Of a stretch of 64,000 nucleotides of DNA, positions 55,701 to 61,943 are shown piece by piece. The stretch lies in the NCBI GenBank assembly GCA_964016885.1, contig OZ024759.1:15438001-15502000 (forward strand), read 5' to 3'. Within the stretch, counting starts at the first letter, position 1, and each line of letters starts with the position of its first letter. Made by a program: the position numbers and the translations under genes. The stretch comes from Eledone cirrhosa (lineage: Eukaryota). Under the pieces are notes generated by a model. The model had not been told where the DNA came from. It ran no database searches and saw only the letters and a program-made list of their open reading frames with translations.

Positions 55701-56035
55701 AAGGGTGAGGAATAGGCTAACAGAGAGAGTGACTGCTAGAAAGGGTAAAGATACAGAGAAAGAGGAAGCAGTAAGACCGAAATAGACGGGTCACGGCGAG
55801 GGAAAAAGTATGTGTAAATATGAGAATAAACGTGCTGCGTGGTTGCTGTACGTGTACATACTTATATTTAAGTAACAGCCGTACTAAGAGTGGGAAATGA
55901 AATTTCGTTTCATTTTTTCCGTTTATCGTTTTCGGTGCACCCGGCCGATTAACCCACTCGATATGCAAATTGGGCTACTCAGCCGTTAATATGCATAAGG
56001 TAAGTATATACGTTCAACAATCTGGCAGGAAGGTA

Positions 56036-56080
56036 TACGTTGCTGACGATAGCTAATAAGCTTGAAACTAGTCCAGCGTA
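56036..56080 (+). ncRNA. Minimal type I hammerhead ribozyme, canonical core
   Basis: UACGUUG-CUGACGA-U-AGC-UAAUAA-GCU-U-GAAAC-UA-GUC-CAGCGUA; 7-bp stem I, GUC triplet. Confidence 0.8.
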
Positions 56081-56220
56081 CCTTTGTCAGTGTTGAACAA
56101 ACGAGCAACGATGGTTGCTAGACACTACGGCTTAATACGGGATGTTTGTTTACAAACACACCGAGCATTATAATAAATGTTCGGTGAATCCATATGTACA
56201 TATATATATATATGTGCATG

Positions 56221-59260: not shown

Positions 59261-59296
<36 letters not shown>

Positions 59297-59419
59297 GGAG
59301 GTGAGTTTTATTGTAGTACAATAAAGCAATGCAGATATCGGATAAGAAGCACTCTACAGTTTGTAGGACTGGAGTATACATAATATAAGATCAAAAGATG
59401 GTTAAAGGAGTTCCATGTA

Positions 59420-59486
59420 TTTTATTATGCGCATTTCAAAAACAAACATCATCATGCAATAATATTTGTGTTTTCATCAGATAAAA
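59420..59486 (-). ncRNA. Type I hammerhead ribozyme (mirror of 59593-59659)
   Basis: Exact reverse complement of the + copy. Confidence 0.75.
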
Positions 59487-59592
59487 CAGGAGAACATGAT
59501 ATGAAGGCTAAAAAACACTTGTGGATAGTGCAGTTTTAAATCAACATGCACTATCCACAAGTGTTTTTTAGCCTTCATATCATGTTCTCCTG

Positions 59593-59659
59593 TTTTATCT
59601 GATGAAAACACAAATATTATTGCATGATGATGTTTGTTTTTGAAATGCGCATAATAAAA
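59593..59659 (+). ncRNA. Type I hammerhead ribozyme
   Basis: UUUUAU-CUGAUGA-AAAC...(long stem II)...UUU-GAAAU-GCGC-AUA-AUAAAA. Confidence 0.75.
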
Positions 59660-59691
59660 TACATGGAACTCCTTTAACCATCTTTTGATCT

Positions 59692-59749
<58 letters not shown>

Positions 59750-59774
59750 GTCTGTGTGTATATATATATATATA

Positions 59775-59952
59775 TAATATAAGATCGATAGATGGTTAAA
59801 AGAGTTCCAAGTATTTTATTATGCGCATTTCAAAAACAATTATCATCTTGGGATGATATTCGTGTTTCCATCAGATAAAATAGGGATACATGATATCAAG
59901 CTTAAAAAAGACTTGTGAATAGTGAAGTTTTAAATCAACATATCCCTATTTC
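59775..59952 (-). mobile_element. Diverged family H copy
   Basis: Colinear with 59380-59546; HHR with A9G. Confidence 0.8.
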
Positions 59953-61571: not shown

Positions 61572-61943
61572 CTAAGTTGGATCAAACATTCTATTGGCGA
61601 AGGAATTAGCGCTTCGATATTGTCAGCTAATGGTTACCTCCGTTCTATCGTTAATCGGTAGAGGTCGTGATAGAGTTATGTAATATGATTCCGTAACACA
61701 GATATCACAAGATTTTCTTCGTCCATTGAACGGTTGGGCCCTAGCCACGATATCCCATTTTAGTGAGTGTTGAACGTTGTTTAATTTAAGGTCTTTAATG
61801 AGCCTAGCTAGCGATGTCGAACAATCTGTTGCTAGGGTCTCGGAAGGAAAAAGAGTGCGCGTTATAGCGTACCTTAAAAGGGTTAGAGGTAGACCCGATA
61901 TAAGAGCTGGTATTCGAAGCAGTCTCAACCGTGCACCTATATA
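61572..61943 (-). pseudogene. Penelope-like element GIY-YIG endonuclease fragment (5'-truncated, one frameshift)
   Basis: [35 protein letters not shown], then +1 shift to [12 protein letters not shown]...[29 protein letters not shown]...[13 protein letters not shown]; YIG, catalytic R, KW, CxxC, E and N motifs. Confidence 0.85.

What the first reader, a model, noticed from the sequence alone, without database searches (positions are those of the whole stretch)
59293..59952. 153-bp perfect hairpin with a complete hammerhead in both polarities, and a neighbour that breaks at the same base
Seen: arms 59380-59532/59547-59699 appear identical and each carries a full HHR. The adjacent diverged copy (59775-59952) also stops at ...TTTTAAATCAACA and is followed by a short inverted piece (TATCCCTATTT vs AAATAGGGATA). 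Its stem II differs in sequence but still pairs (AUCAUC/GAUGAU). Inference: the family has a defined 5' end rather than random truncation. A transcript from either strand would be a rod-like RNA in which the ribozyme competes with a long duplex, superficially viroid- or retrozyme-like.
Basis: partly seen in the sequence, partly recalled or inferred. Interest (0 to 1): 0.75.

Follow-up and report, generated by a model that had tools for sequence, protein, structure and literature searches.

The report
Mirror-image Penelope retrotransposon ends
This hairpin is one of a few thousand estimated back-to-back end pieces of a known kind of jumping gene, not a viroid-like RNA, and the shared break point likely marks where the element's RNA begins, which suggests that both ends of a cut in the host DNA copied the same RNA molecule.

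Summary
The hairpin is real (153/153 bp). Each arm carries a minimal type I hammerhead from the terminal repeat (pLTR) of a Hydra-clade Penelope-like retroelement; intact 800-aa RT/GIY-YIG copies exist in this genome, with 18,107 matches to a 25-mer. Head-to-head pLTR pairs with hammerheads on both strands are published. It is not viroid- or retrozyme-like: each strand has one sense hammerhead, predicted to need a dimer, and read-through RNA would bury it in duplex.

The 'shared end' is not the element's end (45 of 99 copies run further upstream) but a sharp hotspot 124 nt before the cleavage site (33 of 99). It behaves like the capped start of the template RNA: Initiator-like context, excess G, and hotspot arms never paired with longer arms (0 of 49; 10.7 expected). 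A second family shows the same hard edge. 105 of 113 pairs join one long-tail to one short-tail arm, 15 without overlap, favouring twin priming on one sense RNA over the published antisense self-priming idea. The scan noted two-site twin priming elsewhere in this genome; my look-ups returned no note on the capped start. No RNA data were available.

The parts
59293..59547 (-). Long-tail arm: pLTR from -122 to about +136 relative to the predicted hammerhead cut; ends at the distal 3' end site (..CCTCCTACA) in (TA)n
59547..59699 (+). Short-tail arm: pLTR from -107 to about +45; ends at the proximal 3' end site (..GATCTTATATTAT) in (TA)n
59533..59546 (.). 14-nt loop: the part of the long arm (-121 to -108) with no partner; head-to-head junction with 1-nt microhomology at 59547; the same junction occurs at 13 loci
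59591..59661 (+). Minimal type I hammerhead motif (stem I 59591-59598/59654-59661, core 59599-59605, stem II 59606-59641, GAAA plus palindromic stem III 59642-59653); predicted cut after 59653; activity untested
59418..59488 (-). Identical hammerhead motif on the other arm; predicted cut after 59426
59293..59379 (-). 'Tail': the stretch between the two 3' end sites, present on one arm only; in full elements it leads into the ORF
59775..59943 (-). Neighbour: short-tail arm of another subfamily (145/167 identical), starting exactly at the hotspot A (59943); core mutated to CTGATGG
59941..59951 (+). 11-nt remnant of the neighbour's partner arm, joined through TATC; the C at 59944 is not the native upstream base (would be G) and fits a copied cap. 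Four other loci with this junction keep the full partner arm
59263..59292 (.). (TA)n target tract left of the insertion
59700..59774 (.). (TA)n tract between the hairpin insertion and the neighbour

Best explanation
The hairpin is a short head-to-head insertion of two terminal-repeat (pLTR) copies of a Hydra-clade Penelope-like retroelement in a (TA)n tract, likely made when both ends of the cut target primed reverse transcription on one sense RNA at two fixed sites and the two cDNAs were then joined. Shown: family identity, the two 3' end sites (about +45 and +136), one of each per insertion, the 5' hotspot at -124. Inferred: the element's RNA starts, capped, at the A of TTC-A-TATG inside the upstream pLTR. 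When the RT engages the start sites in that 5' pLTR it runs off the RNA end after 170-260 nt, often adding a C opposite the cap, which gives short arms with a hard upstream limit. When it engages the 3' pLTR the arms run on into the 3' UTR and ORF. The cDNA ends are trimmed and joined by microhomology (1 nt here; TATC, including the extra C, in the neighbour). The hammerhead is a passenger: arms run through the uncut site, and in read-through RNA it would be locked in duplex.
For: Family: 18,107 exact 25-mer matches; pLTR-ORF-pLTR copy with 3,709-bp unit and 800-aa ORF with YRDD, DKT, CxCX5C, C-terminal GIY-YIG-like motif, CxxC, CxH, matching the Hydra definition (PMC8557442 section 11). Two-ended priming: 105 of 113 head-to-head pairs (43 of 49 in the unbiased set) are long+short; in 15 of 105 the long arm begins at or beyond +45 and shares nothing with the short arm, and in 34 the short arm reaches further upstream, which copying of one cDNA onto itself cannot give. 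PAc cuts and extends both strands and starts at two sites in vitro (PMC11167929). One template: arms agree at 1,340 of 1,395 subfamily-diagnostic sites against 841 expected; 0 of 49 unbiased pairs (0 of 113 overall) combine a hotspot arm with an arm running past -140, against 10.7 expected, p=6e-6. RNA 5' end: 33 of 99 arms start at the hotspot; junctions with repeated copies of the first 7-15 nt (L100, L105, L108, L151). Cap: base before ATATGTTGATTTAAAACT is G 2,557, A 783, T 2,037 in AT-rich DNA; untemplated in 13 of 30 G, 12 of 30 A, 10 of 30 T loci, about 1,100 vs 310 vs 680 when scaled; an extra G marks capped full-length L1 insertions (PMC11702581, passage). 6 of 8 match to the Drosophila LINE downstream element RGACGTGY at +28 (p about 0.006). 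Second family: 39 of 100 arms start at 0..+12 of CC-A-CTATCC, 1 at -30..-4. Penelope has a TATA-less internal promoter in its pLTR (PMC2377424, passages).
Against: No RNA evidence of any kind for start, cap, expression or cleavage. The G excess is moderate: of 30 G loci, 10 are also explained by the partner arm, 5 are ambiguous and 1 is a mutated continuation; the C class (8,976 by subtraction) was not sampled for untemplated bases. In the second family only 4 of about 12 arms starting at the edge have G, one of them partner-templated. 9 of 76 pairs differ at 3-4 diagnostic sites and only 7 of 76 are closer to each other than to the best outside copy, so two RNAs from one source are not excluded. 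This locus alone (short arm nested in long arm, 13 of 105 pairs are like it) also fits snap-back. The samples are the first-listed matches, on contig C1. The Initiator consensus BBCABW is recalled. Hydra membership rests on motifs, not a tree.
Confidence: 0.65

Rival explanations
1. Same element and twin priming, but the -124 edge is an uncapped RNA processing site, or a DNA-level hotspot at the palindrome CATATG (endonuclease cut or self-annealing), not a transcription start.
For: The site is a palindrome resembling the TA target; 795 loci join two arms through the shared ATAT; TTC|A fits the NUH rule; the G signal is partly ambiguous.
Against: A DNA-level hotspot should also cut one arm of long pairs, but mixed pairs are 0 of 49; the second family's edge is not palindromic; G exceeds A 3.3-fold. 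An uncapped RNA end is excluded only by the G excess and promoter-like context.
Confidence: 0.2
2. Self-priming or snap-back: one cDNA (or an antisense RNA, as proposed in PMC3846280) folds back and is copied, giving the second arm.
For: Perfect arm identity here; proposed for head-to-head PLE palindromes (PMC3846280, passage); cDNA snap-back occurs with R2 proteins (PMC11371274, passages); fits this locus and the 56 of 105 pairs in which the short arm lies within the long arm.
Against: 15 of 105 pairs have non-overlapping arms and 34 have a short arm longer upstream than the long arm; solo short-tail copies flanked by (TA)n exist, so +45 is a primary end; an antisense template does not explain a cap-like G at the sense 5' edge.
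Confidence: 0.11
3. A functional rod-like, viroid- or retrozyme-like RNA in which ribozyme and duplex compete.
For: Hammerheads on both strands; the RNA folds into a rod (-270.5 kcal/mol).
Against: One sense hammerhead per strand, minimal dimer-dependent type with no detectable monomer activity in published tests of that class (PMC4209133); no tandem units; junctions vary from locus to locus; arms age like other copies (mean 2.2% apart).
Confidence: 0.02
4. Assembly fold-back artefact or local duplication.
For: Perfect 153-bp palindrome in microsatellite-rich DNA; no read spanning this exact locus was seen.
Against: Symmetry stops at the family's short-tail end and flanks are not mirrored; same junction at 13 loci; most pairs carry mismatches (21 of 76 identical); contigs from public runs show joints at the hotspot; the neighbour belongs to another subfamily.
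Confidence: 0.02

Closest known systems
Hydra clade of C-terminal EN+ Penelope-like elements (Craig et al. 2021, PMC8557442; section 11, passages and supplement part 2 read)
   Same: Single ORF with RT and C-terminal GIY-YIG, DKT, CxCX5C linker, CxxC/CxH, hammerhead in the pLTR, (TA)n targets; Penelope-13_HM is listed with an inverted 5'-truncated copy and its hammerhead on both strands.
   Different: Unit 3.7 kb rather than under 3 kb; RWTA/RWIA for RWK; hammerhead sequence differs from the listed Hydra-1_oBim motif; tail about 90 nt rather than the 30-40 bp given for PLEs; a fixed 5' edge is not described in what I read.
Inverted pLTR / head-to-head PLE insertions (Arkhipova et al. 2013, PMC3846280, passages; Cervera and de la Pena 2014, PMC4209133, parts 1-2 of 4)
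   Same: Head-to-head inverted pLTRs with palindromic junctions, a tail on one arm only, dual minimal hammerheads 100-700 bp apart on opposite strands.
   Different: Those papers suggest antisense self-priming or give no mechanism; the counts here favour two-ended priming on one sense RNA bounded by its 5' end.
Poseidon_Ac in vitro (Frangieh et al. 2024, PMC11167929; parts 1-2 of 4)
   Same: Both strands cut and extended, two internal RT start sites bounding the tail, hammerhead cleavage not needed for insertion.
   Different: Different clade; inverted insertions and the RNA 5' end are not treated in the parts read.
LINE-1 twin priming and cap-derived extra G (PMC11702581, passages)
   Same: Second RT primed from the reciprocal DNA end; microhomology junction; extra G at full-length 5' ends.
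   Different: L1 arms copy adjacent, non-overlapping parts from a random internal site; here two fixed sites and often the same stretch copied twice.
Animal non-LTR retrozymes (bioRxiv 10.64898/2026.07.22.740005, part 1 of 5; PMC7229834 listing only)
   Same: Type I hammerhead, PLE-related, non-coding at this locus.
   Different: No tandem hammerhead units and no monomer that could be cut out and circularised; sequence is the pLTR of a coding element.

Membership tests
Hydra-clade PLE | Single ORF with RT and C-terminal GIY-YIG endonuclease linked to this pLTR | tested here: met
   800-aa ORF, YRDD at 357, LIY..YFG at 678, between two pLTRs in L041; Pfam gave no significant hit
Hydra-clade PLE | DKG modified to DKT; GxKF/Y absent | tested here: met
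   DKT at 123, no GxK[FY]
Hydra-clade PLE | RWK motif | tested here: inconclusive
   RWTA in L033, RWIA in other copies
Hydra-clade PLE | CxCX5C linker; CxxC and CxH around the endonuclease E and N; no CX2-5CxxC finger | tested here: met
   CNCRIKNKC 659, CNLC 759, CLH 787, no CX2-5CxxC
Hydra-clade PLE | Hammerhead in pLTR and insertion into (TA)n | tested here: met
Hydra-clade PLE | Generally under 3 kb | tested here: not met
   3,709-bp unit; the paper words this as 'generally', and lists one family at 3,045 bp
Hydra-clade PLE | RT phylogeny places it in the clade | not tested
   no tree with reference Hydra proteins was built
Minimal type I hammerhead of metazoan PLEs | CUGANGA and GAAA boxes, stems I and II, short palindromic stem III, NUH site | tested here: met
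   (97.6% of cells paired); 192 of 201 arms keep CTGA[TC]GA
Minimal type I hammerhead of metazoan PLEs | G10.1-C11.1 pair | tested here: not met
   A-U or G-U at the base of stem II; the pair is called highly conserved in PMC4209133
Minimal type I hammerhead of metazoan PLEs | Self-cleavage | not testable with these tools
   needs an in vitro assay
Non-LTR retrozyme | At least two tandem units each with a same-sense hammerhead | tested here: not met
   copies here are head-to-head and tail-to-tail; definition
Viroid-like RNA | Circular monomer released by hammerheads of each polarity; RNA replication | not testable with these tools
   no RNA data; one sense hammerhead per strand gives no excisable monomer
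Naiad clade | N-terminal endonuclease, no canonical hammerhead | tested here: not met
   C-terminal endonuclease and hammerhead present

The most novel reading that the evidence does not exclude
Thousands of short head-to-head PLE insertions are fossils of one reaction: both target ends prime at two fixed sites on a single capped sense transcript, run off its 5' end, copy the cap and are joined. The genome thereby maps the element's transcription start to the base, and the long-puzzling inverted pLTRs of Penelope-like elements need neither antisense templates nor circles nor hammerhead cleavage.
Probability: 0.55. Interest if true: 0.6.

Novelty: new member of a known kind. Interest (0 to 1): 0.4.

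Why it matters
How Penelope-like elements, the closest retroelement relatives of telomerase, make their inverted terminal repeats is called open in PMC8557442 and PMC3846280. This family offers thousands of young insertions, intact ORFs and base-level predictions (start at -124, priming at +45 and +136, extra G) that can be tested by 5' RACE and with purified protein. The locus itself is ordinary. A side consequence: about 3,000 short hairpin loci (extrapolated from 17 close pairs among the first 100 matches) could give double-stranded RNA against the family if transcribed through, as reported for Drosophila Penelope (PMC3681739, passages).

Tried and rejected
Rfam: no family at gathering score; only chance miRNA-like hits at E up to 10. 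DNA search of the genome returned nothing because the words are too common; patterns were used. Pfam: no significant hit for the ORFs or the window remnant. My first label, Naiad (from recall), was wrong. Single central base between two -124 arms (277 loci, 48 of the first 50 G/C) was dropped as evidence for a cap, because the native C at -125 of one arm gives the same sequence. Conservation of the GAAA box in my sample is uninformative, as 100 arms were selected by it. Stem covariation did not exceed shuffles. Apparent arm differences at -87/-85 were gap-placement artefacts and were excluded. No RNA holder listed; only contigs could be laid, none spanning this locus. In the second family about 7 alignments ran spuriously into repeats and are counted among the 33 'long' arms, though some start at the edge. 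Target-site duplications cannot be read in (TA)n. Literature searches listed no paper that applies twin priming or a cap-derived G to PLE inverted repeats; the library lacks most subscription papers and bioRxiv supplements were not read, so this is not proof of absence.

Full report
Coordinates written as -n/+n count from the predicted hammerhead cut of the family.

Observation. The arms 59380-59532 and 59547-59699 are exact reverse complements over 153 bp with a 14-nt loop. Each holds stem I, CTGATGA, a long stem II, GAAA and the palindrome ATGCGCAT. This is the minimal type I hammerhead of metazoan Penelope-like elements (PLEs), described as needing a dimer and weakly active (PMC4209133, parts 1-2 of 4). 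Rfam does not detect it. The neighbour is 145/167 identical, has CTGATGG in the core and stops 2-3 nt further upstream than the hairpin arm. Stem II variation over 15 copies is one-sided only and does not exceed shuffles. The left arm continues 87 nt beyond the mirrored part.

What it belongs to. The genome is 3.0 Gb. A 25-mer around the hammerhead has 18,107 exact matches, and 17 close head-to-head pairs occur among the first 100, about 3,000 by extrapolation. Fetched copies lead into an 800-aa ORF between two such repeats, unit 3,709 bp. Its motifs (DKT, CxCX5C, C-terminal GIY-YIG-like, CxxC, CxH) and (TA)n targeting match the Hydra clade (PMC8557442, section 11); RWK is altered, the unit is longer than usual and no tree was built. 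The hairpin is therefore two pLTR copies. Inverted 5'-truncated copies and one-sided tails are standard for PLEs (PMC8557442 passages; PMC3846280 passages); dual hammerheads on opposite strands 100-700 bp apart were reported in 2014, and Penelope-13_HM is a Hydra-clade example (supplement part 2).

Artefact and duplication. Symmetry ends at the family's short 3' end and the flanks are not mirrored. The same junction occurs at 13 loci and the neighbour's at 5; the 10 and 4 other loci fetched have unrelated flanks, and the four keep the full partner arm that the neighbour has lost to 11 nt. Contigs of public runs show joints and loose ends at 59546-59547; none spans this locus.

The 3' ends. Of 99 mapped arms from the 100 unbiased matches, 52 end near +45, 43 near +136 and 4 run into the ORF. 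Of 113 head-to-head pairs, 105 are long+short, 3 short+short, 2 long+long, 3 involve an ORF arm; in the 49 pairs holding an unbiased match, 43, 2, 1 and 3. The larger set includes loci picked by hotspot patterns. Among the 105, both arms start within 6 nt in 43, the short arm reaches further upstream in 34, the long arm reaches further in 13 (as in this locus), and in 15 the long arm starts at or beyond +45. The second and last classes cannot come from one cDNA copying itself, so both target ends are inferred to prime on RNA. The anole PLE protein extends both strands from two internal sites and does not need hammerhead cleavage (PMC11167929, parts 1-2 of 4). Arms agree at 1,340 of 1,395 diagnostic sites (841 expected) and differ by 2.2% against 8.0% to other copies (76 pairs); 9 pairs differ at 3-4 diagnostic sites, and near-identical outside copies are common, so one source is shown, one molecule only inferred.

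The 5' edge. 45 of 99 arms run past -140, 33 start in a 12-nt window at the A of TTC-A-TATG (-124), 1 is a palindromic overrun there, and 20 start between -112 and -21 (Poisson p about 5e-25). Genome-wide, 6,210 matches carry the native upstream bases. No pair combines a hotspot arm with a long arm: 0 of 49 against 10.7 expected (p=6e-6), 0 of 113 overall. That fits a template that ends at -124 and is shared by both arms, and not a pause or cut site acting on any arm. The base before the hotspot 18-mer is G 2,557, A 783, T 2,037, C 8,976 by subtraction. In 30 loci of each class the base was untemplated in 13 G, 12 A and 10 T, about 1,100, 310 and 680 when scaled; 10 G loci are also explained by the partner, 5 are ambiguous, and the C class was not sampled. 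An extra G marks capped full-length L1 insertions (PMC11702581, passage). The site fits the Initiator consensus BBCABW (recalled) and has 6 of 8 matches to RGACGTGY at +28; Penelope has a TATA-less internal promoter in its pLTR (PMC2377424, passages). Some junctions repeat the first few bases after the edge. A second family repeats the pattern with a non-palindromic edge: 39 of 100 arms start at 0..+12, 1 at -30..-4, 33 further up (about 7 of them misaligned), 27 further down; its G signal is weak (4 of about 12).

How it likely works. The transcript starts capped at -124 in the upstream pLTR and reads through the downstream pLTR and tail. The protein cuts both strands of (TA)n; one end primes at +136, the other at +45. 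On the 5' pLTR both cDNAs are limited by the RNA end; on the 3' pLTR they can run for kilobases. The cDNA ends are trimmed and joined head-to-head by microhomology. In this locus the arms stopped at -122 and -107; in the neighbour the arm reached -124 with an extra C and joined through TATC. Family, ends and counts are shown; cap, single molecule and joining are inferred.

The RNA question. Read-through RNA folds into one 153-bp duplex containing the whole hammerhead, and each strand has a single sense motif, so no monomer can be excised. The nearest precedent is siRNA from Penelope inverted repeats (PMC3681739, passages). The retrozyme definition (tandem hammerhead units; bioRxiv 10.64898/2026.07.22.740005, part 1 of 5) is not met. 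Expression and cleavage are untested.

Novelty. The structure is known and the family is a new member of a known clade. Notes of this scan on other DNA in this genome already propose two-site, two-ended priming (e1-8673709, e1-8804728); I had reached that reading before looking, and they are not independent support. Look-ups for a capped start returned no such note, and nine paper searches listed no paper applying twin priming or a cap-derived G to PLE inversions; PMC3846280 instead proposes antisense self-priming and calls the matter open. Verdict: ordinary locus, useful mechanistic lead; interest 0.4.

Noticed in passing
L206-L294 (G000:C1; 8,184 genomic matches): A second hammerhead family with two 3' ends, head-to-head pairs and a hard 5' edge at CC-A-CTATCC; one locus (L221) has an endonuclease C-terminus 55% identical to this family's ORF upstream on the same strand.
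   Followed up: partly
window 55800-56200 (+): Copy of another hammerhead family that forms tandem units of about 430-470 bp elsewhere (L045, L190), retrozyme-like.
   Followed up: partly
window 61623-61940 (-): Remnant of a GIY-YIG endonuclease C-terminus, 28% identical over 64 aa to the family ORF: another, older PLE copy.
   Followed up: partly
L033:3050-6850: A sense arm that starts at +137 and ends at +136, exactly one unit, with an intact 800-aa ORF, paired with a short-tail arm of about 830 bp; fits a circle or a block at the 5' start site. One example.
   Followed up: no
L100, L105, L108, L151: Junctions hold two to four tandem copies of the first 7-15 nt after the hotspot, as if the RT re-copied the template end repeatedly.
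   Followed up: partly
window 59641-59833: The right arm and the neighbour form a second, imperfect tail-to-tail inverted repeat around the (TA)n tract (seen as chance miRNA-like hits).
   Followed up: no
L031:5323-5940 (-): Tandem amplification of a repeat of about 120 bp in the 3' UTR of one copy.
   Followed up: no
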